From a phage: 64,000 bases of DNA. Every line of letters starts with the position of its first letter. Within the stretch, counting starts at the first letter, position 1. A model generated the notes under the pieces. The model was not told the origin of the DNA. It saw only the letters and a program-made list of their open reading frames with translations, and did no database searches. Position numbers and translations under genes: made by a program. Shown here piece by piece: positions 4,081 through 38,488 of the stretch. The stretch lies in the NCBI GenBank assembly GCA_024672275.1, contig GCA_024672275.1_4536.1. One strand, written 5' to 3'.

Positions 4081-4083
4081 AGC

Positions 4084-4141: not shown

Positions 4142-4158
4142 AAAAAGAGAGAAAGACC

Positions 4159-4512: not shown

Positions 4513-4518
4513 TAAACC

Positions 4519-4572: not shown

Positions 4573-4591
4573 CATATGAAGAGGAAACAAA

Positions 4592-4738
4592 ATGAATACA
4601 TCTAATCGCGCAGAAAAAATTCAATCTTCCAAGATCCGCAAAGCCTGGAACGAGGAAGTGATCCGCAAAGGCGACAAGCGCAATAAAACAAAGCGCGGGA
4701 AGAGTGACAAATATAATTGGATGGATTTAGAGGATTAA
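4592..4738 (+). CDS. small basic protein (48 aa, K/R-rich)
   Basis: ATG 4592 after cassette; RBS AGAGGAAA; below ORF-track cutoff. Confidence 0.45.
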   Translation: MNTSNRAEKIQSSKIRKAWNEEVIRKGDKRNKTKRGKSDKYNWMDLED

Positions 4739-4744
4739 CATAAC

Positions 4745-4772
4745 AAGGGCGCACCAAGCGCCCTTTCTTTTT
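4745..4772 (+). terminator. rho-independent terminator
   Basis: Hairpin AGGGCGC-ACCAA-GCGCCCT followed by TTTCTTTTT; identical copy at 10451-10479. Confidence 0.7.
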
Positions 4773-4793
4773 ACATGTAGAGGATAAACAAAA

Positions 4794-4979
4794 ATGACTT
4801 TAAACGAGCTTAAAACAGCCTACAGCGCAACATTAAAAATAGCCGTGCGCTACCGTGACGAATACGGTTTTATTGCGCAGGGCGTGATCCTGGGCTTTTC
4901 TGACGATGGTTTGATCTATGTTGATGCACATCATAATAAGGTAAAACCTGAAAACGTCATTAGCATAAAATATCTTTAA
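4794..4979 (+). CDS. hypothetical protein (61 aa)
   Basis: ATG 4794 with RBS AGAGGA; ORF track. Confidence 0.5.
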   Translation: MTLNELKTAYSATLKIAVRYRDEYGFIAQGVILGFSDDGLIYVDAHHNKVKPENVISIKYL

Positions 4980-4985
4980 AAGTGG

Positions 4986-5045
4986 TTGACACCATAACTG
5001 GACCTGTTAAACTGTATTACATCAGGCGGGGAATAGTTCTCCACC
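4986..5045 (+). promoter_or_regulatory. sigma70-type promoter + GC hairpin cassette
   Basis: TTGACA 4986-4991, N16, TGn-TAAACT 5008-5013, imperfect hairpin GGCGGGGA-ATAGT-TCTCCACC 5025-5045. Confidence 0.6.
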
Positions 5046-5064
5046 ATACAAAAAGGTAAATATT

Positions 5065-5271
5065 ATGATCACCGCAAAACAAGAGAAAATCATTATCGAC
5101 GTTGCAGCCGTTGCCGCTATTGCTATTATTGGATCTTATTATGATACCCGTTTCCCGTCGGCTATGCATGAGGTCGCCGCCGTTGCATCAGTTGGCGTAC
5201 TGTTTTACGTTGGTAAACGCTATTTATCACCAATGATTAACAAGCTGACACCGTGGAAAAATAAAGGTTGA
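5065..5271 (+). CDS. hypothetical membrane protein (68 aa)
   Basis: ATG 5065; hydrophobic segment IIIDVAAVAAIAIIG; ORF track. Confidence 0.55.
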   Translation: MITAKQEKIIIDVAAVAAIAIIGSYYDTRFPSAMHEVAAVASVGVLFYVGKRYLSPMINKLTPWKNKG

Positions 5272-5325
5272 TCCTGTTTTATATTGTGTTATAGTTATCG
5301 TGTAGGGCGGCAATGGTGCCGCGCC
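5268..5325 (+). promoter_or_regulatory. sigma70-type promoter + GC hairpin cassette
   Basis: TTGATC 5268-5273, N16, TATAGT 5290-5295, exact 20-mer hairpin 5305-5322. Confidence 0.6.
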
Positions 5326-5342
5326 CTTTTGAGGATGCAATC

Positions 5343-5627
5343 ATGAGTAAAGCTAACACCGTGCTAATGTTTTCCCTGATTAATGATCCCGCTTACTTGT
5401 CCAACATGACGCAGGACGGTAACACATTAACGGCAACATTCACCAATAAGCTTGACCGGGTGATCATCGTCTCACTGAAAACAGTTAGTAAAGGCTTTTA
5501 CTCGTTAGCTTATCATTGGATCACCGATACCGATGAGACAAGCCAGGACTATAGCGCCCCTTTCCCTGAATCAATGGCACGGGAGATCATCGCCGCCGTT
5601 GTAAATGATGGTTTGTTTACTGCATAA
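5343..5627 (+). CDS. hypothetical protein (94 aa)
   Basis: Internal ATG 5343 with RBS GAGGAT; track start 5313 lies inside the promoter hairpin. Confidence 0.55.
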   Translation: MSKANTVLMFSLINDPAYLSNMTQDGNTLTATFTNKLDRVIIVSLKTVSKGFYSLAYHWITDTDETSQDYSAPFPESMAREIIAAVVNDGLFTA

Positions 5628-5644
5628 AATAATTTAGAAAAAGG

Positions 5645-5701
5645 CTTGCAATCATTTTGAGATAGTGTATATTTAATTCATAGGGCGGCGGGAATAGTTC
5701 C
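5645..5701 (+). promoter_or_regulatory. sigma70-type promoter + GC hairpin cassette
   Basis: TTGCAA 5645-5650, N16, TATATT 5667-5672, hairpin GGGAA-TAG-TTCCC within GGGCGGCGGGAATAGTTCCC 5682-5701. Confidence 0.55.
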
Positions 5702-5725
5702 CAAAGCAAACGAGAGGATTACACG

Positions 5726-5845
5726 ATGAGCAAGTACACAGTAGAATACACGGTAGAAAATCCGGCAGTATCCGAAGGTAAAAAGATGACATTTGCCATC
5801 AGTATAATCGCTTTCGTTGTCACTATCTTATCAATCATCTTATAA
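5726..5845 (+). CDS. small hydrophobic peptide (39 aa)
   Basis: ATG 5726 with RBS GAGAGGA; C-terminal TM helix; below ORF-track cutoff. Confidence 0.45.
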   Translation: MSKYTVEYTVENPAVSEGKKMTFAISIIAFVVTILSIIL

Positions 5846-5855
5846 GGTACATACC

Positions 5856-6017
5856 ATGAAAACAGCAGACATTATCAAAGAGATCGCCCTTGCCGCTGGT
5901 GTTGAAGTCGAGGAAGTGATCGCGCTCAATCTTACAGAAAACGATCTGCGCAACTATGAAGCGGAAAGCGTGAAAGCAAGCGGCGCGGTCCTGGTATATG
6001 ATCCGGCTAACAAGTAA
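5856..6017 (+). CDS. hypothetical small protein (53 aa)
   Basis: Internal ATG 5856 of track ORF 5817..6017; follows stop of previous peptide. Confidence 0.45.
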   Translation: MKTADIIKEIALAAGVEVEEVIALNLTENDLRNYEAESVKASGAVLVYDPANK

Positions 6018-6026
6018 GGGGATAAC

Positions 6027-6137
6027 ATGAATCCGAAAGATATGCAAGCATGGAAAGGGTACGACGATCTAAGCGCCTTGCGCAATAAGTCAAGCCGTAA
6101 CTTTAGACGGTTGGAAGCAAAGAAAAAGAAAAAATAG
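6027..6137 (+). CDS. hypothetical small basic protein (36 aa)
   Basis: ATG 6027 with RBS AAGGGG; ends TAG immediately before next promoter. Confidence 0.4.
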   Translation: MNPKDMQAWKGYDDLSALRNKSSRNFRRLEAKKKKK

Positions 6138-6138
6138 T

Positions 6139-6196
6139 TTGACAAGTCCGCCTAGTCTGATAATATATATCTTGTAGGGCGGCAATGGTGCCGCTC
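6139..6196 (+). promoter_or_regulatory. sigma70-type promoter + GC hairpin cassette
   Basis: TTGACA 6139-6144, N16, TGn-TAATAT 6161-6166, exact 20-mer hairpin 6177-6196. Confidence 0.7.
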
Positions 6197-6215
6197 ACAA
6201 GAAGAGAGAAAAATT

Positions 6216-6500
6216 ATGAAAATCACAAAAAGCCTAACTAATTATGCAGCACGTCGCGGATTATGTTTAACCGTTGAAAACTTAGGGAAAGAAGACTTTT
6301 TGTGTTTTTGGGAGCTTGAAAACGATTGCGAGTGGATGTTTTCCTATTCTATCTGCGAAGATCAAAACGGTTGTTTGTTAACCTGGCGCGGTAATATCTA
6401 TTTACCGGAAGAAATTAAAGAAGAGTTACCAGGTACGATCATGACAGAGAGACAGCTTAAGGAAGTGATCAATTTTGTAGGGCAAAACATTAAAAAATAA
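6216..6500 (+). CDS. hypothetical protein (94 aa)
   Basis: ATG 6216 after cassette; ORF track. Confidence 0.6.
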   Translation: MKITKSLTNYAARRGLCLTVENLGKEDFLCFWELENDCEWMFSYSICEDQNGCLLTWRGNIYLPEEIKEELPGTIMTERQLKEVINFVGQNIKK

Positions 6501-6501
6501 T

Positions 6502-6564
6502 TTGACAGTAGGCAAACAACGTAGTAAAGTTTATTACATAGAGCGGCGGAATGGTCCACCGCTC
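6502..6564 (+). promoter_or_regulatory. sigma70-type promoter + GC hairpin cassette
   Basis: TTGACA 6502-6507, N17, TAAAGT 6525-6530, hairpin GAGCGGCGGAA-TGG-TCCACCGCTC 6541-6564. Confidence 0.65.
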
Positions 6565-6585
6565 ACAACAGAAGAGAAACAAATC

Positions 6586-6756
6586 ATGATCCCGACTATG
6601 TTTTATGTATCGCGCAAAGGTCACAATATTTTTTGGTCTGAAGATTTAAATGAAGCTATGACGTTTGCCCGTGATCGTGTTGCTATCGGTGGCGTTAACA
6701 TCACCGTAACCGATGAAAATGGCATTGAATACTATAACGGCGACGATGAAGAATAA
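6586..6756 (+). CDS. hypothetical small protein (56 aa)
   Basis: Internal ATG 6586 downstream of hairpin and AGAAGAGA RBS; track start 6502 is the TTG inside the -35 box. Confidence 0.55.
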   Translation: MIPTMFYVSRKGHNIFWSEDLNEAMTFARDRVAIGGVNITVTDENGIEYYNGDDEE

Positions 6757-6763
6757 TTAATGA

Positions 6764-6784
6764 GGCGGGGGAGTATTCCCCGCC
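6764..6784 (+). promoter_or_regulatory. GC hairpin of cassette type without recognisable promoter
   Basis: Hairpin GGCGGGGGAG-TAT-TCCCCGCC 20 nt upstream of ATG 6804; no -35/-10 found upstream. Confidence 0.45.
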
Positions 6785-6803
6785 GTCAATAAAGAGGTAA
6801 ATC

Positions 6804-7073
6804 ATGAAAATATCATTGGACGTTGCAATCAAGGCCATCGAGTCCGGTTACATCCTGGTAAAAGATGATAAGGCTAAAATAGTGCATCATGTTAACAAGG
6901 AAACAGGCGAAAGCATGATCACATATAAAGCCGCCTACTTTCTCCAATCAGTAGCAGATCCGCGCGTACAACGCCAGGTTACGGCGACTATTGCTAAAAA
7001 ATTATGTGCTTTACAGGGTGCAAGTTTTAACGAGATCGCCCCGTGTTTTGAGTGGTCAAGCTTGAAAAAATAA
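6804..7073 (+). CDS. hypothetical protein (89 aa)
   Basis: ATG 6804 with RBS AAAGAGG; ORF track. Confidence 0.6.
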   Translation: MKISLDVAIKAIESGYILVKDDKAKIVHHVNKETGESMITYKAAYFLQSVADPRVQRQVTATIAKKLCALQGASFNEIAPCFEWSSLKK

Positions 7074-7074
7074 T

Positions 7075-7136
7075 TTGACAACAATTATAAATCGGGTAGA
7101 ATGTATTTCGTAGGGCGGGGCAATAAGGCAACGCCC
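7075..7136 (+). promoter_or_regulatory. sigma70-type promoter + GC hairpin cassette
   Basis: TTGACA 7075-7080, N16, TAGAAT 7097-7102, hairpin GGGCG..CGCCC 7113-7136. Confidence 0.6.
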
Positions 7137-7154
7137 ATTAATGAGGGTAGAATC

Positions 7155-7259
7155 ATGTTAGAGAAAATTTTCACGGTTGTAATAGTGGGCCTGGCGTTAT
7201 CGGTTGGAGTGGTTGCAACTATGGCTAATATGATCCTATCTTCCCACGGTATCGGTTAA
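7155..7259 (+). CDS. small hydrophobic peptide (34 aa)
   Basis: ATG 7155 with RBS GAGGG; predicted TM helix. Confidence 0.45.
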   Translation: MLEKIFTVVIVGLALSVGVVATMANMILSSHGIG

Positions 7260-7269
7260 GGTGAAACAA

Positions 7270-7431
7270 ATGATCACGAACAAAACAGGCAAAACGGAAT
7301 TTTTACGCGGCTTACAAGTTGGTAAGCCTGAGATCTGGCATTGCACGAAGTCCGCGCATAATGAAATGAAAGATTTTACCGCTACTTTACAACGTGTTAA
7401 AATATCTATCACACAGAAAAAGCCTTGTTAG
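7270..7431 (+). CDS. hypothetical small protein (53 aa)
   Basis: ATG 7270 with RBS AAGGTG; below ORF-track cutoff. Confidence 0.4.
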   Translation: MITNKTGKTEFLRGLQVGKPEIWHCTKSAHNEMKDFTATLQRVKISITQKKPC

Positions 7432-7480
7432 TAGTAGAAAACGAGATCCCGCAAACTATTATTATTGTCGAGCGTACAGC

Positions 7481-7867
7481 ATGAAAACAGAAATCATTAT
7501 TGAAATCATCAACGGCTATAAAGAAGCCTTTATTTTTGCTGAATCAGCAAGGGATCATGAAGGTAATTTTATTGATAACTTAGACGATTATGATTTTTCT
7601 CCTAGCGCGGACGAACGGATCGCCCAGGATGTAACAGCCTTTATTAATGCTAATCTTGCCGCTATCTCTGAGGCAATGAGCGACGGCGCAACAGCCAACC
7701 AGATCGGGAATGATTTACATTTTACCCGTAACGGTCACGGCGTAGGCTTTTGGGATCGCCCTGAGATATACACCACTAACACGGCGAACCGCCTAACCAA
7801 TGCAGCTAAGTTTATGCCGAACGTGTCGGCTTACATTGGTGAAGATAATTTGATTTATATTGAATAA
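7481..7867 (+). CDS. hypothetical protein (128 aa)
   Basis: Internal ATG 7481 of track ORF 7394..7867 (track start is GTG inside previous ORF); start uncertain, weak RBS. Confidence 0.5.
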   Translation: MKTEIIIEIINGYKEAFIFAESARDHEGNFIDNLDDYDFSPSADERIAQDVTAFINANLAAISEAMSDGATANQIGNDLHFTRNGHGVGFWDRPEIYTTNTANRLTNAAKFMPNVSAYIGEDNLIYIE

Positions 7868-7873
7868 AAAGTA

Positions 7874-7931
7874 TTGACACAGATCGCCAGTGTGCTAATA
7901 TTTACCACGTAGGGCGGCAATGGTGCCGCTC
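7874..7931 (+). promoter_or_regulatory. sigma70-type promoter + GC hairpin cassette
   Basis: TTGACA 7874-7879, N16, TGn-TAATAT 7896-7901, TTACCACGTAGGGCGG box, exact 20-mer hairpin 7912-7931. Confidence 0.7.
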
Positions 7932-7950
7932 ACTGTAAAAGGTAAACATT

Positions 7951-8142
7951 ATGAAAACTATCACCTATCTGGAATCGAATAACATGTTTTTTGCGCCCGT
8001 TGATGAAATCATCGAAGCATTAAACAACGAGGAAGGGATCAAAGGTTTATCTTATAGCCAACTTTTAGGAATGGTTGCAGCAAATGTAGAGCTTGCTTAC
8101 TATGTTGAAAATTTTGATGAAGCTGTAATCTTTACAAAATAA
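7951..8142 (+). CDS. hypothetical protein (63 aa)
   Basis: ATG 7951 after cassette; ORF track. Confidence 0.6.
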   Translation: MKTITYLESNNMFFAPVDEIIEALNNEEGIKGLSYSQLLGMVAANVELAYYVENFDEAVIFTK

Positions 8143-8145
8143 TCC

Positions 8146-8202
8146 TTGATCTAATCTCTTAAATAACTTATATTTAATGCGTAGGGCGGCAATGGTGCCG
8201 CC
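8146..8202 (+). promoter_or_regulatory. sigma70-type promoter + GC hairpin cassette
   Basis: TTGATC 8146-8151, N17, TATATT 8169-8174, exact 20-mer hairpin 8183-8202. Confidence 0.6.
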
Positions 8203-8220
8203 GATAATGAGGAAAGTAAA

Positions 8221-8520
8221 ATGGAAACTATCGCTATTGTTACCGTAGAAAAACTGGTTGTTGGTGATGTATTCGCGTTAATGGTGCCTAACAGCAGCAA
8301 GCTGGGCGCTTATGAAGTAATGGATCATAAAAATGAATCATTTGGCGACGGTTGCACAATGGCGGTAAAATCTTTAAAGGATGGAATTATCCGCCAGGCT
8401 AACTGGCACAAAGGGAATCAAGTCGGTTTAATATCAGCTAATTTCTTGCCAGAAGAGCAAACATTAGATCAACTATCAGGCGGTAAGACGTTAGCCGAAC
8501 TACTGGAAACAGCGATCTAA
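8221..8520 (+). CDS. hypothetical protein (99 aa)
   Basis: ATG 8221 with RBS GAGGAAAG; ORF track. Confidence 0.6.
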   Translation: METIAIVTVEKLVVGDVFALMVPNSSKLGAYEVMDHKNESFGDGCTMAVKSLKDGIIRQANWHKGNQVGLISANFLPEEQTLDQLSGGKTLAELLETAI

Positions 8521-8527
8521 TCGACAA

Positions 8528-8545
8528 GGGGGCGGCAACGCCCCC
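8528..8545 (+). promoter_or_regulatory. GC hairpin with GNRA-type loop, no recognisable promoter
   Basis: GGGGGCG-GCAA-CGCCCCC 30 nt upstream of ATG 8575. Confidence 0.4.
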
Positions 8546-8574
8546 ATTAAACGCAATAGAAAGAGGATAGACAC

Positions 8575-8859
8575 ATGAAAAAGATGATCGCAGTAGTTGC
8601 CCTGGTTGTTGGTATTAACGCGCCTGTAATGGCGAAAGAGTTGCCAGAATCCATCACGTTAACCGATATTAACGCAGTGAACCGGATCGGTGTTAATTAT
8701 CGCCTATGCCTTGCCGCTAAAACTTTCCAGGACGGCACAACAGAGTACTACGGATTCGAGGGTATCCGCTGCGGTGAGCTTTCACGCGACCTTAAGGAAG
8801 ATCCAGACCTTGAGGCCATACCGATGACCGTAAACGGTAAAGCCCAGGTAAACCGCTAA
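8575..8859 (+). CDS. secreted/periplasmic small protein (94 aa)
   Basis: N-terminal Sec-type signal peptide MKKMIAVVALVVGINAPVMA; RBS AGAGGA. Confidence 0.6.
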   Translation: MKKMIAVVALVVGINAPVMAKELPESITLTDINAVNRIGVNYRLCLAAKTFQDGTTEYYGFEGIRCGELSRDLKEDPDLEAIPMTVNGKAQVNR

Positions 8860-8882
8860 CCATGAGAAAGGTAATCATCACA

Positions 8883-8996
8883 ATGGGGATCGTAGTAGCA
8901 ACGCTGGCGCTAATCCCCTTCCTGATTAAATATGTGCTAATCAGTGTTGTTCTGGTAGTCAGTGACCTATTGGAAACGGTTGGCACCTGGTTTTAA
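8883..8996 (+). CDS. small hydrophobic peptide (37 aa)
   Basis: ATG 8883 with RBS AGAAAGG; alternative start ATG 8862; one predicted TM helix. Confidence 0.4.
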   Translation: MGIVVATLALIPFLIKYVLISVVLVVSDLLETVGTWF

Positions 8997-9008
8997 GGAG
9001 TAATAAAA

Positions 9009-9200
9009 ATGAATGCAGAACAAGTTAGAAAGGTATTAGCAGCGTTGCGGTATCACAACCATAGCAAGGTAAAGAATGATCCTGACTATGTGGATTCAAG
9101 CCTGGAAGAAGACACATTGCAAGCTATAAGCCATATGCAAAAATTGCTTAAGCGTATGACAGAAAAGAATAGATCTGATTATATAGGTGACGAGATCTAA
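9009..9200 (+). CDS. hypothetical protein (63 aa)
   Basis: ATG 9009 with RBS AAGGAG; ORF track. Confidence 0.55.
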   Translation: MNAEQVRKVLAALRYHNHSKVKNDPDYVDSSLEEDTLQAISHMQKLLKRMTEKNRSDYIGDEI

Positions 9201-9206
9201 AATAGC

Positions 9207-9264
9207 TTGCACAATGTATCGGATAGTGTAAGATGTATCACGTAGGGCGGCAATGGTGCCGCCC
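9207..9264 (+). promoter_or_regulatory. sigma70-type promoter + GC hairpin cassette
   Basis: TTGCAC 9207-9212, N16, TAAGAT 9229-9234, exact 20-mer hairpin 9245-9264. Confidence 0.65.
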
Positions 9265-9284
9265 ACTGAAAAAGGTAAATCATC

Positions 9285-9473
9285 ATGGCAATCGTAAAAG
9301 CAAAAGATCTCAAGGTCGGTATGGAACTGGACACGGGCGCGATGGTAGTGACCGTTATTATCATCGATGCGGATCTCGTAGAGCTTGAATTACAGGTTTA
9401 TGATCCTGATTGCGGGGAGGTTGACTTTTTATCTTTCCAGGAGAACGCCGAGGAAACGTATAACATCAACTAA
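9285..9473 (+). CDS. hypothetical protein (62 aa)
   Basis: ATG 9285 after cassette; ORF track. Confidence 0.6.
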   Translation: MAIVKAKDLKVGMELDTGAMVVTVIIIDADLVELELQVYDPDCGEVDFLSFQENAEETYNIN

Positions 9474-10479: not shown

Positions 10480-12057
10480 CCCGAACAATGTTGATAGCTT
10501 TCGCCTATGAAAAACCGACACAGAACAAAATTGAATAAATCGCGGTATCGAGCTAATCAACCATTAAACGAATAACCATACCTCCCAGGGTAACAGGCTG
10601 TTAGAGAGCCATTTATAGCGGTTAAAATCGATCAACAACCAACAACAAACCATCAAAAACACCCTTTTACCTCCTTTCTAGTGCAATGATAACCATTATC
10701 ATCTATACATGATTATATATGCAATATAAGTGCATAACTATAATGTTGATAATAGTTCGCAACAACTAACTAACCAACAACCTAAAACAATAAGCAAACT
10801 AATTATAATCAAAGGAATAATAGCAAGATGATTGATAACGACAAACAATCAAACCATGATGAATACTAAGCAAGATAACGATAACACGACAAAACAACCA
10901 ACTAACGAACAATAACAAACGAAATCATTAAAATAATAACTATTGCCATAATAGTGACTGAATGAATCATTACAAAACGAATCATTCCCAAGATCATCAT
11001 TAGCACGCTATGCCGGACACATAGCGAGCTAATAATAAGCCAACTACACCCCAACAATCATAACCATCGGTGATGGTTATTTCTTGTTACTGCGTAGCTT
11101 GCAATAATTGCAAGCGTAATGACGCTTACACTTATTGCGCTGGCTTATTATTAGCATTATATGTAATTACCAAGATCATAACATTAGCGCAATAACAATA
11201 ATCATTGTAATTGTTACAAGATGAGATTATTAGCATGGCAATAATTATTGGGGGGCAATGGGAGGATGATTATCATCATTCCGATACATTGCACACTATG
11301 CACATAATAGAATAAAAGTCAATAATTTTGGGGCGAAATGTTACCGCCACGGGCGGGAATGTTGAGCACTAAGAAAAGAGATAAACCTTAATCATGGGGG
11401 CGTAAATATCCGAGGATTGCCAACGGCGATCCGGTAGGATGTTGAGCAAGTTTTCTTAAACGTAAATAAAATCAGAAAATTCTTGATTTATTTTAGTTTT
11501 TATGTTAATAAACGTTTAAATAATAATCATTCTCATATGAATAATAGTCCGTCTGTCATGCGCGGGATCAGTTGACATTGTTCCGTCATATGATGAAGTT
11601 GCCAAACCATTGATAAATAAGCGTTTGTGTGATTTATAATCAAGTGGCCCACCTTGTCGCTATGTTGGCATGAGCCTTGCATAAGTCATTGAATACGAAT
11701 GATAATTATTCTCATTCGCATGATATTTGGGAATTGTCGCTGCGTGGACCTGACGGCCCGAAAATTCGCGTTAAGCACTTCTTACGTATGCGCCATGATT
11801 TTTGCCATATCATATTGATTCTATTAGATATTCTTGCCATGATTGCCATGAAACAGGGTGTGTCGAAATAATCTCTCCCCGTAGATATTTTGGGTTACTT
11901 TTTATACAAGAGTGGGGTGTCAAAAATAATCGATATATATGGGATAATTAATAGGAATCCCCTATGGTAATTCGATTGTAATTGCCGAAGATTGATCGTA
12001 TGATGTTGGTGATTGATGATTGCCATGAAAGATGGCTAACGATGAGAGGAGATTGTC
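10480..12057. other. ORF-free, strand-skewed, repeat-rich spacer between gene modules
   Basis: No credible ORF; 10600-11000 is A+C-rich with CAACAA/AAC repeats; ATTAGC/AATAAT repeats 10980-11260; direct repeats GGAATGTTGAGCA (11358, 11428), TTGCCATGAAA and GTGTC(G/A)AAA..AATC (11838-11870, 11913-12030). Confidence 0.5.
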
Positions 12058-12402
12058 ATGCAAGAGAGTAAAAATGTTCCCTTGAGTAGCTTACGTCTAA
12101 TGAAGTTTTACAAAGCTTGGCTTGCTGGTGAGGTAGAAGGTCACACAACGAGTGGTTTGTGCATATGTCTGATTAAGTATGTAGAGGGAACATACCCTGA
12201 TGAACTGTTACCTCGTCTACAACAGGAGATGAAATCACAGTTTATTAGTGCAGGATTGGATTACAATTTCCCGTTTAATGAAGGTGGTTATGAAGAATAC
12301 ACCTTCGAACATAAAAAACTTATTTGCCATAAAAACAAACATCGTATACAATGGGTGCTAGATAGAATTCAGGATTACGAAGGAGAGAAAAATGACAAAT
12401 AG
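12058..12402 (+). CDS. paralog family member 1 (FY..W / GLC.CL / PF / WV.DR motifs), 114 aa
   Basis: RBS GAGAGGAG + ATG; shares conserved motif set with 12392, 17031, 20375, 23213, 24518. Confidence 0.65.
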   Translation: MQESKNVPLSSLRLMKFYKAWLAGEVEGHTTSGLCICLIKYVEGTYPDELLPRLQQEMKSQFISAGLDYNFPFNEGGYEEYTFEHKKLICHKNKHRIQWVLDRIQDYEGEKNDK

Positions 12403-12760
12403 TATTCCGTTGAGCAGTGCAACATTGCTTCGCTTCTATAAAGCATGGATTGCCAACTATCCTGCAATGAATCGCACAACGAGTGGCTTATGTGGTTGTC
12501 TGGTAGATTATGTAAATGATTTTGTTGGTGAGACAACTAGAGAAGAAGATAGAAGATGGCGGGATAGTTTGTTAGACCGTTTGAAATATGAAATGAGGAA
12601 ACAATTTACATGTGCAGGGCTGGACTACAATCTTCCGTTCAATGCAGATTGCATGGATTACCTTTCAGAGTGTATAAACTTGGCGTGTCATACCAACACG
12701 TTACGTCTTCAATGGGTGAAAGATCGCATTGAAGATGCAAATAATTCTTGCATTGAATAA
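12392..12760 (+). CDS. paralog family member 2, 122 aa
   Basis: RBS GAAGGAGAG + ATG overlapping previous gene; motifs LRFYKAW, GLCGCL, PFN, LQWVKDR. Confidence 0.65.
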   Translation: MTNSIPLSSATLLRFYKAWIANYPAMNRTTSGLCGCLVDYVNDFVGETTREEDRRWRDSLLDRLKYEMRKQFTCAGLDYNLPFNADCMDYLSECINLACHTNTLRLQWVKDRIEDANNSCIE

Positions 12761-16853: not shown

Positions 16854-17030
16854 ATGGCTACTTTTCAACAATTGAAAGATGTTTCACGTTTAGTAAGAAA
16901 AATCCGAGAAGCAGACGCTGCTGTGCGGAATGCATTAACGCCAGCAGAGCGTGAAGATCTTGAAGAGGAGGTGAAAACAGCCGAGAATGCTTTTGCTGTG
17001 TATCTTTCAACACTGTATACAGGAGGTTAA
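16854..17030 (+). CDS. hypothetical small protein (58 aa)
   Basis: RBS ACAGGAGAAAG + ATG; stop TAA abuts ATG 17031; below ORF-track cutoff. Confidence 0.5.
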   Translation: MATFQQLKDVSRLVRKIREADAAVRNALTPAEREDLEEEVKTAENAFAVYLSTLYTGG

Positions 17031-17345
17031 ATGTCAGAAGAACTTAAAGAATTTTATCAGGCATATCATAACTGGCTATTAGCTGGTGCTCCAGATAATA
17101 ATCCTTTCTGGCATGATAAAGGATTATGTAGTTGCCTCTACCTTTGGACTGGTGGTTACGATGATCTAAATTATGAAATGCAAATGCAATTTCGAGAAGC
17201 AGGGTTGTCTGAAGAATACCCGTTTGATGACGGAGACTGGTTTAAATATGATTTTGCACAAAGAAACGGGCTATTGCATTTGAATGCTGCCCGTATAAAA
17301 TGGGTAAAAGATCATGCTACACAGGAGGATGTGCAATGCCAATAG
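17031..17345 (+). CDS. paralog family member 3, 104 aa
   Basis: RBS ACAGGAGG + ATG; motifs LKEFYQAYHNWL, GLCSCL, PFD, RIKWVKDH. Confidence 0.65.
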   Translation: MSEELKEFYQAYHNWLLAGAPDNNPFWHDKGLCSCLYLWTGGYDDLNYEMQMQFREAGLSEEYPFDDGDWFKYDFAQRNGLLHLNAARIKWVKDHATQEDVQCQ

Positions 17346-20165: not shown

Positions 20166-20378
20166 ATGTGGATTGTCCGTCTTAAGTATGATGGCAAGTT
20201 TCCGTGGGAGAAAGATGTTTGTGCCTGTGATTCGGCAGCACATGCCAAAGCAGCGGGTCAGGCAGTAGTTGACATGTATAACAACACTTCCGTTGATCCA
20301 GAAATGGGAGGTGTTACAATGAGCATGTTCACTTACTATTCTTTTGAGGTTTACTATCATGAAGGAGAGTGGAAATGA
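20166..20378 (+). CDS. hypothetical protein (70 aa)
   Basis: RBS GATGGAGGAA + ATG; ORF track. Confidence 0.55.
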   Translation: MWIVRLKYDGKFPWEKDVCACDSAAHAKAAGQAVVDMYNNTSVDPEMGGVTMSMFTYYSFEVYYHEGEWK

Positions 20379-20695
20379 GCGAAGAACTATTAACATTTTA
20401 CCGCACGTATTTGGCATGGTTGGAAGCTGGTGCTCCTGAAGGTGAACCGTTCACCCGTTGCACAGGATTGTGCTCGAACCTCTATGATTTTTACGATATA
20501 GGGGAAAACGAACGATACGAACCTGTACTGGATGAAATGCATGAGCAGTTCTACCGCAAAGGTTTGGTTATGGTGTTGCCTTTCAACAGTAATTTTGGAA
20601 AGTACACCTTAGAAGCGGAAAGAAGCCGTTGTCATTTGAATGTGGATCGTGTGAACTGGGTAAAAGAACGTGTAGCAGAAGAAATAATTGGTTGA
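20375..20695 (+). CDS. paralog family member 4, 106 aa
   Basis: Internal ATG 20375 with RBS GAAGGAGAG; motifs LLTFYRTYLAWL, GLCSNL, PFN, RVNWVKER. Confidence 0.65.
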   Translation: MSEELLTFYRTYLAWLEAGAPEGEPFTRCTGLCSNLYDFYDIGENERYEPVLDEMHEQFYRKGLVMVLPFNSNFGKYTLEAERSRCHLNVDRVNWVKERVAEEIIG

Positions 20696-21525: not shown

Positions 21526-21849
21526 ATGCAAGCAGTTGTTAACGAAGCTATTATGAACTTATCCTTCTTGTTAGCTGGTTTAGGAGGTGTTCTCATAGGT
21601 TTGGCTCTTATCTGGTGTATTCGTCGATTAATCGGGTACCGACAAAAAGGTGTTTCATGTTTTGTATCTTACAATTTTACAACTGCTTACAGCAATGAGG
21701 TTGGATCTGGCAATGCTCAAGCATTTTTACCAACATATCCTCCTACGGTGGAAGATATTCGAAACTTGGAAGTAGAACTTATGGGACTAAGTGATAACTA
21801 TACATCTCTCGTTATTCAAAATATTTTTCGACTAAAACAGGAGGCGTGA
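21526..21849 (+). CDS. membrane protein (107 aa)
   Basis: RBS TAAGGAGAAAAG + ATG; N-terminal TM helix LSFLLAGLGGVLIGLALIW. Confidence 0.6.
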   Translation: MQAVVNEAIMNLSFLLAGLGGVLIGLALIWCIRRLIGYRQKGVSCFVSYNFTTAYSNEVGSGNAQAFLPTYPPTVEDIRNLEVELMGLSDNYTSLVIQNIFRLKQEA

Positions 21850-22062
21850 ATGAAGGCACATTACCCTCATCCCTTTGATCCTAAAAACAAAGCCGTAATT
21901 CTTCGTCAGTGGCAACGGGTTTGTCGTACTAAATGTCCAATTAATAGCCAACACGATGTGGACAAGGACTATCTTGGGACATTTGTTGAATACACTTACA
22001 TAGACAAAAACAAGCGTAAACAACATGTCGAGGAATACTGCTTAAGAGTAGAATGGCTGTAA
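21850..22062 (+). CDS. hypothetical basic protein (70 aa)
   Basis: RBS CAGGAGG + ATG; ORF track. Confidence 0.55.
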   Translation: MKAHYPHPFDPKNKAVILRQWQRVCRTKCPINSQHDVDKDYLGTFVEYTYIDKNKRKQHVEEYCLRVEWL

Positions 22063-22074
22063 ATAATAAATACC

Positions 22075-22103
22075 TTGACAAGTGTTTATTCGTTTTGTAA
22101 AGT
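22075..22103 (+). promoter_or_regulatory. sigma70-type promoter upstream of recombinase gene
   Basis: TTGACA 22075-22080, N17, TAAAGT 22098-22103. Confidence 0.45.
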
Positions 22104-22132
22104 GAGAATACAGCAATGGTTTAGGAGTGGTT

Positions 22133-22804
22133 ATGAAAAAGTTTGTTGTTTACAGTCGTCTTTCTAAACAGAAAAAAGGTGAGGCACAATATGGTATGGA
22201 GAGCCAAGAGAACGATATCCGTTACTTCTTAGACTCTGTGCCTGATGCGGAAGTTATTGGTCAATTTTCTGAATACTATTCGGGTAAGGGCGATTGGAAG
22301 CAACGTAAAGAACTGGTTAAAGCGGTTGAAATGTGTAAAGCTACCGGAGCAACTTTATTGGTAGCTAAAGTTGACCGCTTGGGTCGTAACAACGCCTCCG
22401 TAGCAACTCTTCTGGAGATGATCGATGTTAAGATAGCCATCATGCCAGACGCAGATAAAATGGTTATACAGCTTCTATCTGTTCTGGCTGAACAAGAAGT
22501 TAGAGGTATTGCTGATCGTATTAAAAAGGGTCTTGCTGTAGCAAAAAGTAAAGGTGTTTTATTAGGTAGTGCTAATCCTAAAACTGCCGCTGCACGTAGA
22601 AAAGGAAAAATGGAATACAACTCTGTTAAAGCAGACGCTTTTGCAGAGACATTCCGTGAACGCTTGGAGATCCTTAGAGATTTAAATACACCTTACAAAA
22701 CTATTGCTGAAAAATTCAATAGTAAGAAAATAGCAACAGCACGTGGTGGTAAATGGGATGCTAAAACTGTTTCTCGTTTGTGTGCCAGACTTAACATTAA
22801 ATAG
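22133..22804 (+). CDS. small serine recombinase (resolvase/invertase family), 223 aa
   Basis: N-terminal catalytic motif VYSRLS (Ser nucleophile) and LLVAKVDRLGRN box; C-terminal HTH-like segment; ATG 22133 with RBS TAGGAGTGG. Confidence 0.75.
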   Translation: MKKFVVYSRLSKQKKGEAQYGMESQENDIRYFLDSVPDAEVIGQFSEYYSGKGDWKQRKELVKAVEMCKATGATLLVAKVDRLGRNNASVATLLEMIDVKIAIMPDADKMVIQLLSVLAEQEVRGIADRIKKGLAVAKSKGVLLGSANPKTAAARRKGKMEYNSVKADAFAETFRERLEILRDLNTPYKTIAEKFNSKKIATARGGKWDAKTVSRLCARLNIK

Positions 22805-22812: not shown

Positions 22813-23223
22813 ATGAAACAAGAAAATGAATCTGTAGATCACTTAATCATGCTGTCAGCCCTTTTTGCCGGATGGGACGTATTTTTTGAAAATTTGTTCA
22901 ATTCTGCTACAGATGGTTCCGATTTTATGCGGCAGTTTAAACGACGAACTGTTGAGGACTATGCTTTCTATTCAGGTCGGATTGAAAAAGGTTACGAAGA
23001 TACAAATACAACACTCACCATTAAAGTTTTAGATGTGATGTTTAGTGTTATAGATGCTATCGACGAAAGTCTTCCGATCCTAGACAATTGTAATACGAAA
23101 GCCTATGTTTACAAAATAGCTCGTGCTTATGTGTCTGCAAACAGTTGTCTTCTTTCCACGCAGATTGCCGTGAACAATCTTGCCAACTTGTTCGACGAAG
23201 GAGAAACTTTTTATGACAATTGA
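22813..23223 (+). CDS. hypothetical protein (136 aa)
   Basis: RBS ATAGGAGAGG + ATG; ORF track. Confidence 0.6.
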   Translation: MKQENESVDHLIMLSALFAGWDVFFENLFNSATDGSDFMRQFKRRTVEDYAFYSGRIEKGYEDTNTTLTIKVLDVMFSVIDAIDESLPILDNCNTKAYVYKIARAYVSANSCLLSTQIAVNNLANLFDEGETFYDN

Positions 23224-23578
23224 TTTGAAGTGTAAAAGGATTCTTTTAGATTTCTATAATAATTGGTTAGAACACCTCCGTCTCTTTCCAAGAGAAAGTG
23301 GTTACGCTGATGTTGGCTTATGCCGAGGTCTACGTATGTATATAAGTGATGAATTTCGGGCCGAGCATTCTTTAGCATATTCTGTTTATGGTATGCAATT
23401 AGCCAGTTTTGAAAACGCTGGTTTAGATACAACTTTCCCATTTAACACAGCAAAATCTTTTGAGCAAGAGTGTAAGGAAAAACGTTGCATGTTTAATGAA
23501 AAACGTGTACAGTGGGTTAAGGATCGAGTTAAACAATTGGAACAAGAGTTGGATTTCTTCTATGATGAGGCAGAATAA
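23213..23578 (+). CDS. paralog family member 5, 121 aa
   Basis: Internal ATG 23213 with RBS GAAGGAGAAA; motifs LLDFYNNWL, GLCRGL, PFN, RVQWVKDR. Confidence 0.65.
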   Translation: MTIDLKCKRILLDFYNNWLEHLRLFPRESGYADVGLCRGLRMYISDEFRAEHSLAYSVYGMQLASFENAGLDTTFPFNTAKSFEQECKEKRCMFNEKRVQWVKDRVKQLEQELDFFYDEAE

Positions 23579-23850
23579 TGGATAGACAAACCTTAAAAAC
23601 AATGGCAGATGCTACCAATTCCCCGTACTTTGAAAAAGTAAGTAAATTGGTAGCTCAAGCCGCAGAGGAAGGATATTATAACATAAACATCCACAACCCA
23701 AGTCTTATACTAGAAATGCCAAGTGATAAGAAGATACAAGAGAGTATTTGTGAAGGTATTGTTAGTTACTGGCGCGAGCGTGGGTGTGGTGCAAACATGG
23801 CTTTAGACAGTGCAAACATTGTAAGATATATAAATATTTCTTGGGGGTGA
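23578..23850 (+). CDS. hypothetical protein (90 aa)
   Basis: ATG overlapping upstream stop (TAATG), RBS GAGGCAGAA; ORF track. Confidence 0.55.
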   Translation: MDRQTLKTMADATNSPYFEKVSKLVAQAAEEGYYNINIHNPSLILEMPSDKKIQESICEGIVSYWRERGCGANMALDSANIVRYINISWG

Positions 23851-24466: not shown

Positions 24467-24470
24467 CAGT

Positions 24471-24500
24471 TGCACCCCGTTCTGCGGGGTGTTATTGTAT
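24471..24500 (+). terminator. rho-independent terminator
   Basis: Hairpin CACCCCG-TTCTG-CGGGGTG followed by TTATTGTAT. Confidence 0.55.
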
Positions 24501-24517
24501 ATGTAAAGGAGGCGCTA

Positions 24518-24856
24518 ATGTATTACACTGAAGACTACATACTGTATAACTTTTTTAAAGGTTGGTTAGAATGGGCGGAAAAAGCTCCTGTTGGAGATTG
24601 TGTTTTTCCTTGGGATTCTCGTCAAGGTTTGTGTCGTTGTTTGGAAGATTGGCTTATAACCACAAACTACAACTCAGAAACTAAGAAATCTACATCACAG
24701 AGACTAAAAATGTTATTTGAAGAAGATGGTTTAGATCCGATTTATCCTTTCGGTGAGGAAAGTTTCCACAATGGTCTTTTCCTTGGCACTCAACATTATG
24801 ATAAAGATCGTGTAGATTGGGTAAAAGAAAAGGTAGCACAGTATGAATGGGGTTAA
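24518..24856 (+). CDS. paralog family member 6, 112 aa
   Basis: Internal ATG 24518 with RBS AAAGGAGG; motifs ILYNFFKGWLEW, GLCRCL, PFG, RVDWVKEK. Confidence 0.65.
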   Translation: MYYTEDYILYNFFKGWLEWAEKAPVGDCVFPWDSRQGLCRCLEDWLITTNYNSETKKSTSQRLKMLFEEDGLDPIYPFGEESFHNGLFLGTQHYDKDRVDWVKEKVAQYEWG

Positions 24857-25046: not shown

Positions 25047-25173
25047 GAAATTGTTTAATATTCGTGAGAATCGTGATGGATCGTTCTCTGTAGTCAATGA
25101 ATTTAACGTTTCGGTTGGGACTTTTATTACTAAACGTCAAGCAGAACAAGTAAGAGATACTTTAAACAAGTAA
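25039..25173 (+). CDS. hypothetical small protein (44 aa)
   Basis: RBS GAAGGAGG + ATG 25039; below ORF-track cutoff. Confidence 0.45.
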   Translation: MSKKLFNIRENRDGSFSVVNEFNVSVGTFITKRQAEQVRDTLNK

Positions 25174-28967: not shown

Positions 28968-28993
28968 TAGAACCCGCTTCGGCGGGTTTTTTC
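28968..28993 (+). terminator. rho-independent terminator (UUCG tetraloop)
   Basis: CCCGC-TTCG-GCGGG followed by TTTTTT. Confidence 0.65.
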
Positions 28994-33711: not shown

Positions 33712-33737
33712 AAAAAACCCGCCGAAGCGGGTTATTA
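33712..33737 (-). terminator. rho-independent terminator (UUCG tetraloop)
   Basis: - strand AACCCGC-UUCG-GCGGGUU followed by UUUUUAUU. Confidence 0.65.
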
Positions 33738-38239: not shown

Positions 38240-38284
38240 AATCCCTCCTTAAAATACTCCCTCCGAAAAGGGAGTATAAGTATA

Positions 38285-38488
38285 TCACGTAGTTGTTATG
38301 TTGTCTTCTTGGATACTAGAATCCACTTCTGCAAACATATCTTCTGCACTGTAATTATTTCCAGTCCAGCGTGATAAAAGGATAGCAGCAATCTCTTTCG
38401 CATGAGATTCGGACTCTGCATAAACGTTAGTCCCAGTGTCACCTTTTTTCTTTTCATGTGCATAAATGCAGTAATAATTGTAAGCCAT
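38285..38488 (-). CDS. hypothetical protein (67 aa)
   Basis: ATG overlapping upstream stop (TAATG); ORF track. Confidence 0.5.
   Translation of the reverse strand: MAYNYYCIYAHEKKKGDTGTNVYAESESHAKEIAAILLSRWTGNNYSAEDMFAEVDSSIQEDNITTT

What the first reader, a model, noticed from the sequence alone, without database searches (positions are those of the whole stretch)
22075..22804. Small serine recombinase with its own promoter in an otherwise lytic-looking module
A 223-aa resolvase/invertase-type serine recombinase sits among anonymous small genes, with no adjacent integrase-type C-terminal domain and no recognisable IS boundaries. In phages such enzymes drive invertible host-range switches (Gin/Cin-like), resolve replication multimers or act on plasmid-like prophages. 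No flanking inverted crossover sites were identified next to the gene.
Basis: partly seen in the sequence, partly recalled or inferred. Interest (0 to 1): 0.55.

Follow-up and report, generated by a model that had tools for sequence, protein, structure and literature searches.

The report
Orphan serine recombinase in lytic coliphage

Summary
Window 22133-22804 (+) encodes a 223-aa serine recombinase (Pfam Resolvase, E 5e-18). A sigma70-like promoter (TTGACA-17-TAAAGT) lies at 22075-22103. The window is a Phapecoctavirus (phAPEC8-like, about 150 kb, Stephanstirmvirinae).

The enzyme looks active and selected:
- Y7, R9, S11, R58, D81, R82 and R85 are invariant in 39 diverse homologues.
- All 15 differing codons between the window and phage ESCO5 are synonymous.
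- The protein is at least 99% identical in 63 phage records, and homologue counts match the subfamily's record counts.

It is a stand-alone gene, not an IS, an integrase or a Gin/Hin-type module:
- It has no Hin-type HTH. The short C-terminal HTH matches only the start of the large-serine-recombinase "Recombinase" domain.
- An exhaustive scan of a complete relative found no credible inverted site pair.
- No inversion breakpoint was seen at the one candidate arm in 68 records.
- There is no copy in 5,426 complete E. coli genomes.

The gene sits at different loci in two genera, each time with its own promoter. Its divergence equals that of syntenic core genes, which fits vertical descent plus one relocation.

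The target and role are unresolved. My best guess is a resolution- or cyclisation-type reaction on phage DNA. Interest is modest; this is a new member of a known kind.

The parts
22075..22103 (+). Predicted sigma70-type promoter: -35 TTGACA (22075-22080), 17-nt spacer, -10 TAAAGT (22098-22103).
   Evidence: 10 of 12 positions match. The 70-bp upstream region 22063-22132 is identical in the window, ESCO5 and DE16. Analogous promoters precede the homologues in alia, L005, FKP3 and phiWec179. Prediction only.
22065..22090 (.). 26-bp imperfect dyad AATAAATACCTTG-A-CAAGTGTTTATT overlapping the -35 hexamer. A weak candidate for an operator or binding site.
   Evidence: It occurs once in the window. 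Folded as a hairpin it is no more stable than shuffled sequence (z -0.24). Its centre is an odd single base, and it is not conserved in other lineages. Probably not significant.
22124..22127 (+). Shine-Dalgarno GGAG, with a 5-nt spacer before the ATG.
   Evidence: Read directly from the sequence.
22133..22804 (+). Coding sequence of the 223-aa small serine recombinase, stop codon included.
   Evidence: The protein is 100% identical in about 60 phage records. Window against ESCO5 shows 16 nt differences in 15 codons, all synonymous.
22145..22558 (+). Catalytic (Resolvase N-terminal) domain, aa 5-142, including the long E-helix at aa 109-139.
   Evidence: Pfam. AlphaFold2 model with mean pLDDT 88.3. 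Foldseek matches to Sin, gamma-delta, TP901-1 and Bxb1 catalytic domains. The family profile matches Gin at 1.5e-17 and Tn3 at 5e-16.
22163..22165 (+). Codon TCT for Ser11, the predicted nucleophile, in the motif Y7-x-R9-x-S11.
   Evidence: Invariant in 39 homologues that are 31-78% identical to the window protein, together with R58, D81, R82 and R85. It aligns with S10 of gamma-delta/Tn3 resolvase (established knowledge of the family).
22577..22789 (+). C-terminal helical DNA-binding domain, aa ~149-219, with the motif IAexfNxkxixTxRGGkWxxxxVxRl.
   Evidence: Weak PF07508 match. No HTH_7 hit. Only large serine recombinases (Bxb1 9iu2, SPbeta 9dxh) align through this region. Helices H149-172, H175-183, H188-197 and H210-219 in the model.

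Best explanation
SHOWN. The locus encodes an intact, stand-alone small serine recombinase. It has an N-terminal catalytic domain, an E-helix, and a short HTH domain of the type that begins the 'recombinase domain' of large serine recombinases. It is preceded by its own sigma70-like promoter inside the early-gene block of a virulent Phapecoctavirus. It is under strong purifying selection. Homologue counts indicate it is present in essentially all sampled Stephanstirmvirinae. It has diverged at the same rate as syntenic core genes, although it sits at different loci in Phapecoctavirus-like and Justusliebigvirus-like phages.

INFERRED. Host RNA polymerase makes the protein early in infection. A dimer binds a roughly 24-30 bp dyad-symmetric site, two bound sites synapse into a tetramer, Ser11 makes 2-bp staggered double-strand breaks with 5'-phosphoserine links, and subunit rotation followed by religation exchanges the partners.

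MOST LIKELY ROLE (low confidence). The enzyme performs a resolution- or cyclisation-type reaction between directly repeated copies of one phage site. Such copies would exist in the terminal repeats or in successive genome units of replicating DNA. This is analogous in outcome to P1 Cre/lox or to plasmid multimer resolvases, and it is not an inversion switch. The site itself was not identified.
For: Identity and activity:
- establish the domain content and fold.
- The catalytic residues are invariant.

Selection:
- There are 15 synonymous and 0 non-synonymous codon differences between the window and ESCO5, at the same nucleotide divergence as the flanks.

Prevalence:
- tblastn finds the gene in 107 Escherichia records plus Klebsiella, Citrobacter and other relatives.
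- The same numbers of records carry the replication module and the terminal element.

Vertical descent:
- The window and alia proteins are 57% identical, within the 24-85% range of 20 syntenic orthologues.

Own promoter at two different loci.

Against inversion.

Resolution-type leaning:
- The same ~220-aa architecture is a very large family, with 3,872 50%-identity clusters at E<=1e-30.
- Members are among the five or six annotated genes of 5.7-7 kb plasmids of Klebsiella, Synechococcus, Marinovum and Phaeobacter, with about 650 bp of non-coding DNA upstream. This is the usual layout of a multimer-resolution system (inference).
- A relative, BME3, has 342-bp direct terminal repeats (PMC12210895), so directly repeated copies of any terminal site exist on every infecting genome.
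Against: - No recombination site was identified.
- Only 70 bp separate the gene from the upstream ORF, too little for a classical three-subsite res.
- The upstream dyad is statistically unremarkable and is not conserved between lineages.
- Lytic phages that package from concatemers have no obvious need to resolve multimers.
- The plasmid analogy rests on annotation and gene context, not on experiments.
- The catalytic domain is equally similar to invertases and to resolvases, so sequence does not discriminate between the two reaction types.
- No published functional data were found.
Confidence: 0.35

Rival explanations
1. Selfish or formerly mobile gene cassette (promoter plus recombinase). 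It would behave like the free-standing homing-endonuclease genes of T4-type phages and persist without a role in the phage life cycle.
For: - The gene occupies different intergenic positions in two genera, each time with its own promoter and in the orientation of its neighbours.
- The Justusliebigvirus insertion point is an 'empty site' in the window (38246-38286, minus strand) that holds a terminator hairpin instead.
- In Vibrio phage ICP1 a 30%-identical homologue occurs only in some isolates, inside a replaced block of accessory genes.
- The upstream neighbour is a recently exchanged T4-like gene.
Against: - Homologue counts match the subfamily's record counts, and the position is stable within each lineage down to 52-67% protein identity.
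- Its divergence equals that of syntenic core genes.
- dN/dS is about 0.
- There are no flanking repeats or target duplications at the filled against the empty site.
- Serine recombinases with this domain order are not known to transpose on their own (established knowledge: IS607 TnpA has the inverted domain order).
Confidence: 0.15
2. Gin/Cin/Hin-type DNA invertase that flips a phage segment to switch tail fibres or host range.
For: - PHROG 125 and many GenBank records call it 'DNA invertase'.
- The family profile's best solved-structure match is Gin.
- A 43%-identical homologue in a Vibrio element is bracketed by a 19-nt inverted pair that is 95% complementary, with both arms in frame in the flanking genes (unverified).
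Against: - There is no HTH_7 domain.
- An exhaustive diagonal scan of the complete ESCO5 genome for 26-nt inverted pairs at >=22/26 gave only terminators, RBS regions and chance-level coding matches. None flanks the tail-fibre genes.
- The one pair that brackets the gene (16880-16905 / 25118-25143) lies inside two ORFs, and none of 68 records breaks there.
- The window, ESCO5 and DE16 are colinear.
- The tail-fibre module lies outside the window, tens of kb from the gene.
Confidence: 0.04
3. The enzyme acts on DNA other than the phage's own. Possible targets are the host chromosome, resident prophages or plasmids, or co-infecting phages. The purpose would be host takeover, counter-defence or inter-phage competition.
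For: - The gene is in the early block among host-takeover-type small genes and has a host-type promoter.
- No target was found in the phage genome.
- E. coli serine recombinases PinQ and PinR change phage susceptibility by inverting prophage DNA (PMC12529663; 10.1101/2025.03.28.646004; abstracts listed), so such switches exist in the host.
Against: No candidate host site was identified. The DNA-binding domain is unlike that of the Pin/Gin enzymes, so cross-reaction with their sites is unlikely (inference). The idea is purely speculative.
Confidence: 0.13
4. It drives cassette shuffling in the hyperplastic early region by recombining the repeated promoter-plus-hairpin elements (analogues of the PeSL elements of T4-type phages).
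For: - At least 13 directly repeated promoter-plus-dyad elements lie in window 230-9300.
- Several indel breakpoints between the window and ESCO5 (3306, 7930, 8167) fall at these elements.
- The element is conserved in Justusliebigvirus BME3.
Against: - The stems vary by compensatory changes and variable loops (GCGGCA..TGCCGC, GCGGGAA..TTCCCGC). This points to a hairpin rather than a fixed protein site.
- Repeats of 50-90 bp are ample for homologous recombination.
- T4-type phages shuffle PeSL cassettes without any serine recombinase (own knowledge, not checked here).
Confidence: 0.07
5. It has a non-recombinational role, for example as a DNA-binding regulator or a topoisomerase-like nicking-closing enzyme that keeps the catalytic fold.
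For: No partner sites were found, and weak dyads overlap the promoters in some lineages (window; FKP3, a 10-5-10 palindrome over the -10).
Against: The full catalytic constellation is invariant over a family that spans 31-100% identity to the window protein. This argues for selection on catalysis. The dyads are not conserved between lineages.
Confidence: 0.08

Closest known systems
Gin/Hin/Cin/Pin DNA invertases (phage Mu, Salmonella, P1, e14)
   Same: They share the serine-recombinase catalytic domain and E-helix with the same catalytic residues, a similar size class, and phage encoding. The family profile matches Gin at E 1.5e-17.
   Different: The window protein has no Hin-type HTH_7 domain. 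No inverted 26-bp sites, invertible segment or adjacent tail-fibre genes were found. The identity of the window protein to Gin is low (single-sequence E only 6e-3).
Tn3 / gamma-delta and Sin / beta resolvases
   Same: They share the catalytic domain: Tn3 gives E 2.8e-6 with the single sequence and 5e-16 with the family profile. Like them, the gene is stand-alone and has a promoter immediately upstream.
   Different: There is no multi-subsite res (only 70 bp lie upstream), no transposon or plasmid context, and the C-terminal DNA-binding domain is different.
Large serine recombinases / integrases (Bxb1, TP901-1, PhiC31, SPbeta SprA)
   Same: These are the only solved proteins that align through the C-terminal HTH. 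There is a weak hit to the start of Pfam PF07508, and the motif 'G.kW....V.riL' is shared.
   Different: The protein is 223 aa, against more than 400 aa for these enzymes. It lacks the rest of the recombinase domain, the zinc-ribbon domain and the coiled coil. No att sites or lysogeny were found.
Uncharacterised ~220-aa 'recombinase family proteins' of small plasmids (Klebsiella 5.8 kb, Synechococcus 6.4 kb, Marinovum 5.8 kb)
   Same: They have the same full-length architecture and are 35-39% identical over 95-99% of the protein. They are stand-alone genes.
   Different: They sit on circular replicons, where a multimer-resolution role is expected (inference). They have long non-coding regions upstream. 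None is known to me to have been tested experimentally.
P1 Cre/lox (functional analogy only)
   Same: It is a phage-encoded site-specific recombinase that can cyclise a terminally redundant infecting genome and resolve multimers.
   Different: Cre is a tyrosine recombinase, P1 is temperate, and lox is defined. Here no site is known.

Membership tests
Serine recombinase superfamily (Pfam PF00239) | Resolvase-type catalytic domain scoring above the curated threshold. | tested here: met
   66 bits against a cut-off of 23.3, E 5.2e-18, aa 5-142. Fold matches to Sin, gamma-delta, TP901-1 and Bxb1.
Serine recombinase superfamily (Pfam PF00239) | Catalytic Ser nucleophile with the conserved Arg/Asp constellation (gamma-delta R8, S10, D67, R68, R71). 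| tested here: met
   Y7, R9, S11, R58, D81, R82 and R85 are invariant in 39 homologues.
Serine recombinase superfamily (Pfam PF00239) | Demonstrated strand exchange at a pair of specific sites. | not testable with these tools
   This needs an in vitro or in vivo recombination assay.
DNA invertases (Hin/Gin/Cin/Pin) | C-terminal Hin-type HTH (Pfam HTH_7). | tested here: not met
   Only PF00239 and a weak PF07508 hit were reported at E<=1.
DNA invertases (Hin/Gin/Cin/Pin) | Two ~26-bp crossover sites in inverted orientation bounding an invertible segment next to or around the gene. | tested here: not met
   Genome-wide scan at >=22/26 and repeat searches. The one candidate pair was rejected.
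DNA invertases (Hin/Gin/Cin/Pin) | Fis-dependent recombinational enhancer. | not tested
   No reliable sequence test was available.
Tn3/gamma-delta-type and Sin-type resolvases | A res site with several dimer-binding subsites adjacent to the gene. | tested here: inconclusive
   Only 70 bp lie upstream, with one weak dyad. No repeated subsites were recognised, but sites inside neighbouring ORFs cannot be excluded.
Tn3/gamma-delta-type and Sin-type resolvases | Residence on a transposon or plasmid. | tested here: not met
   The gene lies in a virulent phage genome with no transposase or terminal repeats nearby.
Large serine recombinases (phage integrases) | Full recombinase domain plus zinc-ribbon domain and coiled coil (more than 400 aa). 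| tested here: not met
   The protein is 223 aa. Only positions 19-48 of the 102 positions of PF07508 match, and below threshold.
Large serine recombinases (phage integrases) | Integrated prophage form flanked by attL and attR. | tested here: not met
   No match to the locus in 5,426 complete E. coli genomes.
IS607-type serine transposases | N-terminal MerR-like HTH followed by a C-terminal catalytic domain. | tested here: not met
   The catalytic domain is N-terminal. The fold match to ISC1926 TnpA covers the catalytic domain only.
PHROG 125 ('DNA invertase') | Profile match over the full length. | tested here: met
   E 2.6e-32, aa 1-222. The family name is an annotation, not a tested function.

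The most novel reading that the evidence does not exclude
The recombinase is the protein half of a Cre/lox-like genome-processing module of a virulent DTR myovirus. In this reading it recombines a site in or next to the short terminal repeats. One candidate region is the single-copy, strongly covarying cluster of DNA palindromes at window ~11010-11165, which every sampled Stephanstirmvirinae genome also carries. The reaction would cyclise the infecting genome or convert replication products. If so, a serine recombinase would be an essential replication-cycle enzyme in a strictly lytic phage.
Probability: 0.1. Interest if true: 0.7.

Novelty: new member of a known kind. Interest (0 to 1): 0.3.

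Why it matters
- 'Recombinase', 'integrase' and 'invertase' hits are routinely used to flag phages as potentially temperate and unsuitable for therapy. phAPEC8-like and phi92-like phages are therapy candidates. The evidence here is that the gene is not an integrase and that no integrated or plasmid form exists in 5,426 complete E. coli genomes.
- A catalytically intact serine recombinase kept under strong purifying selection, apparently in all sampled members of a lytic phage subfamily and with no visible substrate, is a small but genuine open question. Finding its site would show what site-specific recombination is for in a virulent phage.
- It would also give a function to a very large uncharacterised subfamily of ~220-aa serine recombinases whose DNA-binding domain is of the large-serine-recombinase type.

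Tried and rejected
1. Long inverted repeats in a complete relative (ESCO5). The 22-nt perfect pair at 28971-28992 / 33712-33733 is simply two intrinsic terminators.

2. Exhaustive 26-mer inverted-pair scan at >=22/26. It gave 23 clusters, all terminators, RBS regions or chance-level coding matches.

3. The pair 16880-16905 / 25118-25143, which brackets the gene. Both arms lie inside ORFs, and none of 68 records has a breakpoint there.

4. The pair 21660-21697 / 23796-23833 (28 of 38 complementary). This is chance level, with both arms in coding sequence.

5. The upstream 26-bp dyad as an operator or site. It is unique, but its stability is not above shuffled sequence and it is not conserved in other lineages.

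6. WPEC1/2/4/6 records that seemed to carry an inversion. WPEC1 is a scrambled assembly with many breakpoints and fragmented ORFs, so this is an artefact.

7. Defence-system membership. There was no PADLOC hit.

8. NCBIfam. There were only far-sub-threshold hits to YneB, XisF, Mpi and CcrB.

9. Literature. Only unsupported remarks were found (a 'resolvase keeping concatemers as single genome' in PMC10282059). No experiments were found.

10. Prophage or plasmid form in E. coli. None was found.

11. Rfam match for the terminal structured element. None was found.

Full report
WHAT IS THERE

The ORF runs from ATG 22133 to the stop ending at 22804 on the + strand, giving 223 aa. An in-frame GTG lies two codons upstream, and GGAG sits at 22124-22127. 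The protein matches Pfam Resolvase PF00239 at E 5.2e-18 over aa 5-142. At aa 187-216 it matches the first third of PF07508 'Recombinase' below threshold. It also matches PHROG 125 'DNA invertase' and the Tn3, gamma-delta, Sin and Gin structures.

An AlphaFold2 model built on 39 homologues has a mean pLDDT of 88. It shows the mixed alpha/beta catalytic core, a long E-helix (aa 109-139) and four C-terminal helices. Foldseek returns serine-recombinase catalytic domains. Among full-length matches it returns only the large serine recombinases Bxb1, SPbeta and PhiC31.

A sigma70-like promoter, TTGACA-17-TAAAGT, lies at 22075-22103.

WHERE THE WINDOW COMES FROM

The window is 95-99% identical to about 65 Phapecoctavirus genomes (phAPEC8-like myoviruses of about 150 kb, subfamily Stephanstirmvirinae). 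It maps colinearly onto phage ESCO5. It spans three regions:
- a rightward block of small early genes;
- a 1.6-kb non-coding stretch;
- more small early genes, including the recombinase, followed by the leftward nucleotide-metabolism and replication module.

The structural and tail-fibre genes lie outside the window, tens of kb away.

IS THE ENZYME FUNCTIONAL?

In an alignment of 39 homologues that are 31-78% identical to it, Y7, R9, S11, Q25, R58, D81, R82 and R85 are invariant. These correspond to the Y6/R8/S10/R45/D67/R68/R71 constellation of gamma-delta/Tn3 resolvase (established knowledge of the family).

Between the window and ESCO5 the gene differs at 16 nucleotides in 15 codons, and every change is synonymous. 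Its nucleotide divergence (2.4%) is the same as that of the flanking genes, so this is purifying selection rather than a recent sweep. The protein is 100% identical in about 60 records.

HOW WIDELY IS IT KEPT, AND IS IT MOBILE?

tblastn finds it in 107 Escherichia phage records plus Klebsiella, Citrobacter, Pseudomonas-labelled and other relatives. The replication module and a conserved terminal element are found in the same numbers of records (133 in total, 107 Escherichia). By this indirect count, essentially every Stephanstirmvirinae genome carries the gene.

Its position differs between lineages:
- In Phapecoctavirus-like phages (the window; phiWec179, 75% identity; Citrobacter Tr1, 67%) it lies in the rightward early block.
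- In Justusliebigvirus-like phages (alia, phi92, BME3, Klebsiella FKP3, a metagenomic contig; 55-57% identity) it lies inside the replication module, between two small genes.

The corresponding place in the window (38246-38286, minus strand) holds only a terminator hairpin. At both loci the gene brings its own TTGACA/T-17-CATACT, TAAAGT or TAAAAT promoter. No repeats or target duplications mark the boundaries.

The 57% identity between the two genera falls within the 24-85% range of 20 syntenic orthologues. The simplest history is presence in the common ancestor, one relocation, and long vertical inheritance. That fits a gene useful to the phage better than an actively moving selfish element.

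TESTS OF THE PROPOSED ROLES

Inversion switch:
- Pfam finds no Hin-type HTH.
- A self-comparison of the complete ESCO5 genome found no long inverted repeats. An exhaustive diagonal scan for 26-nt inverted pairs with at least 22 matches also found no credible site pair. What it found were intrinsic terminators, ribosome-binding regions and chance-level coding matches.
- The only pair that brackets the gene (16880-16905 / 25118-25143) lies inside two small ORFs. In 68 phage records every match crosses the arm without a break.
- WPEC records that looked inverted turned out to be scrambled assemblies.
- The inversion reading is therefore not supported.

Integrase, lysogeny or plasmid prophage:
- The protein lacks the zinc-ribbon and coiled-coil domains.
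- The locus has no match in 5,426 complete E. coli genomes, including their plasmids.

IS or transposon:
- There are no terminal repeats, and the domain order is the opposite of IS607 TnpA.

Defence system:
- There is no PADLOC hit.

WHAT KIND OF SERINE RECOMBINASE IS IT?

The family profile matches the catalytic domains of Gin (1.5e-17), Tn3/gamma-delta (about 5e-16) and Sin (8.5e-15) about equally. Only large serine recombinases align through the C-terminal HTH.

A profile search of 1.84 billion representatives finds 3,872 clusters at E<=1e-30, and most of the best 150 hits are 215-240 aa long. This is therefore a large, uncharacterised subfamily of small serine recombinases with a DNA-binding domain of the large-serine-recombinase type.

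Members that are 35-39% identical are among the five or six annotated genes on 5.7-7 kb plasmids of Klebsiella, Synechococcus, Marinovum and Phaeobacter, with about 650 bp of non-coding DNA upstream. That is the usual layout of a plasmid multimer-resolution system, although this is an inference from context. More distant homologues occur in other large lytic phages, namely Vibrio phages (including some ICP1 isolates) and Shewanella phages, again among small accessory genes.

MOST LIKELY MECHANISM

Shown:
- the enzyme is intact;
- it is under purifying selection;
- it has a predicted early promoter at every locus examined but one.

Inferred from the family:
- a dimer binds a dyad-symmetric site;
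- two bound sites synapse into a tetramer;
- Ser11 makes 2-bp staggered double-strand breaks;
- subunit rotation and religation exchange the partners.

Guessed (confidence about 0.35): the substrate is a phage site present as direct repeats. A relative has 342-bp direct terminal repeats (PMC12210895), and replication produces tandem genome units. The outcome would then be cyclisation or resolution, as with P1 Cre/lox or plasmid resolvases.

No site was found. The 26-bp dyad over the -35 hexamer is statistically unremarkable and is not conserved.

The rivals are listed with their evidence in the rival-explanations section:
- a relic selfish cassette;
- action on host or competitor DNA;
- shuffling of early cassettes at repeated promoter-hairpin elements;
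- a non-recombinational role;
- an inversion switch, now unlikely.

COMPARISON WITH WHAT IS KNOWN, AND NOVELTY

The gene is already annotated in GenBank as 'DNA invertase', 'resolvase', 'serine recombinase' or 'recombinase family protein'. In several records it is mislabelled 'methionine ABC transporter ATP-binding protein'. I found no experimental work on it. One paper merely asserts that it keeps concatemers as single genomes (PMC10282059), and another states that no recombinase genes were predicted in ESCO5 (PMC10269720).

It is a new, uncharacterised member of a known enzyme kind. Its DNA-binding domain differs from that of the characterised small serine recombinases. Interest is modest (0.3). 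The open point is what a strongly conserved site-specific recombinase does in a strictly lytic phage.

SIDE OBSERVATIONS

Several features outside the finding are recorded under 'noticed in passing'. The most notable is a single-copy, roughly 155-nt cluster of nested palindromes at window ~11010-11165, found in all 133 subfamily records. It shows strong two-sided covariation: 96.8% of cells are paired, and 14 pairs changed on both sides against 5.2 in shuffles (0 of 500 shuffles reached the observed value). It has almost no G-U pairs, which points to a DNA-level structure near the genome terminus.

Noticed in passing
window 11010-11165 (inside the non-coding stretch 10480-12050): A conserved cluster of nested palindromes with a cloverleaf-like layout. 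It has a hairpin GCCTATG-ccggaca-CATAGGC, then a 15-bp closing stem GCTAATAATAAnnCA / TGnnTTATTATTAGC that encloses three further hairpins, including the invariant CTTGCAA-taa-TTGCAAG. It occurs once per genome in all 133 Stephanstirmvirinae records (BME3 has two copies). Identity between genera is 75-80%. 96.8% of cells are paired, and 14 of 50 pairs changed on both sides (0 of 500 shuffles reached this). There are almost no G-U pairs, so the structure is probably at the DNA level (origin, packaging site or other site). There is no Rfam match. Many genome records are opened 450-700 bp from it, so it lies near the physical termini.
   Followed up: partly
window 230-9300 (+): At least 13 directly repeated early-promoter cassettes. 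Each has an A-tract, TTGACA-17-TAAGAT/TAAACT, a GC hairpin about 7 nt downstream (GTAGGGCGGCAATGGTGCCGC or GGGCGGGAAnnGGTTTCCCGCC, with compensatory stem variants), and then the RBS and a small ORF. Indel breakpoints between the window and ESCO5 fall at these elements. The element is also present in Justusliebigvirus BME3. It resembles the promoter-early stem-loop (PeSL) cassettes of T4-type phages (own knowledge).
   Followed up: partly
window 10680-11730, and ESCO5 140330-140480 (just left of the window start): Several Fur-box-like or iteron-like motifs, such as AATGATAACCATTATCAT, AATAATCATTCTCAT and GAATGATAATTATTCTCATT, together with repeated TTATTAGC motifs. They lie in the non-coding region that corresponds to the neighbourhood of the 342-bp direct terminal repeat annotated in phage BME3. 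Position 1 of the phAPEC8/ESCO5 records equals window 11698, inside one such motif.
   Followed up: partly
window 21850-22062 (+): The 70-aa ORF immediately upstream of the recombinase is 76-82% identical at the nucleotide level to the tk.3/tk.4 region of hundreds of T4-like (Tequatrovirus) genomes. This implies fairly recent gene exchange between unrelated coliphages. GenBank records label it 'putative ABC transporter ATP-binding protein', and some records put a 'methionine ABC transporter' label on the recombinase itself.
   Followed up: partly
window 12058-12402, 12392-12760, 17031-17345, 20369-20695, 23180-23578, 24470-24856 (+): A paralogous family of at least six small early proteins (about 105-130 aa). 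They share an N-terminal 'FY..Y..WL' motif, a central 'GLC' motif and a C-terminal 'R(V/I).WVK(D/E)R' motif, which also appear as DNA repeat families D6 and D8. No function is known.
   Followed up: no
window 38246-38286 (-): This intergenic site holds a terminator hairpin (ACTCCCTTTTCGGAGGGAGT). It is homologous to the place where phi92/alia-type phages carry the promoter-plus-recombinase cassette. In those phages the stop codon of the upstream gene is embedded in the -35 hexamer TTGACA.
   Followed up: yes
L007 5534-5552 / 7177-7195 (Vibrio-associated element encoding homologue P0071, 43% identity): A 19-nt inverted pair, 95% complementary, brackets the recombinase gene. Both arms are in frame in the flanking genes (ENNLNL and ENNMNL). 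This could be a Hin-like invertible segment that contains its own invertase. It is unverified, and the flanking proteins do not look like tail fibres.
   Followed up: partly
PV659873.1 (phage WPEC1; L024); the related WPEC2/4/6 records show the same odd orientation: These records are 5-11 kb longer than their relatives. WPEC1 is scrambled against ESCO5 at many unrelated breakpoints and has many fragmentary ORFs. This looks like a mis-assembly rather than a biological rearrangement.
   Followed up: yes
window 28971-28992 and 33712-33733: A perfect 22-nt inverted pair, 4.7 kb apart, consists of two copies of the same intrinsic terminator (AAAAAACCCGCCGAAGCGGGTT). Similar shared terminators (AAGGGGCCGAAGCCCCTT) recur at 29609, 41714 and 46004.
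   Followed up: yes
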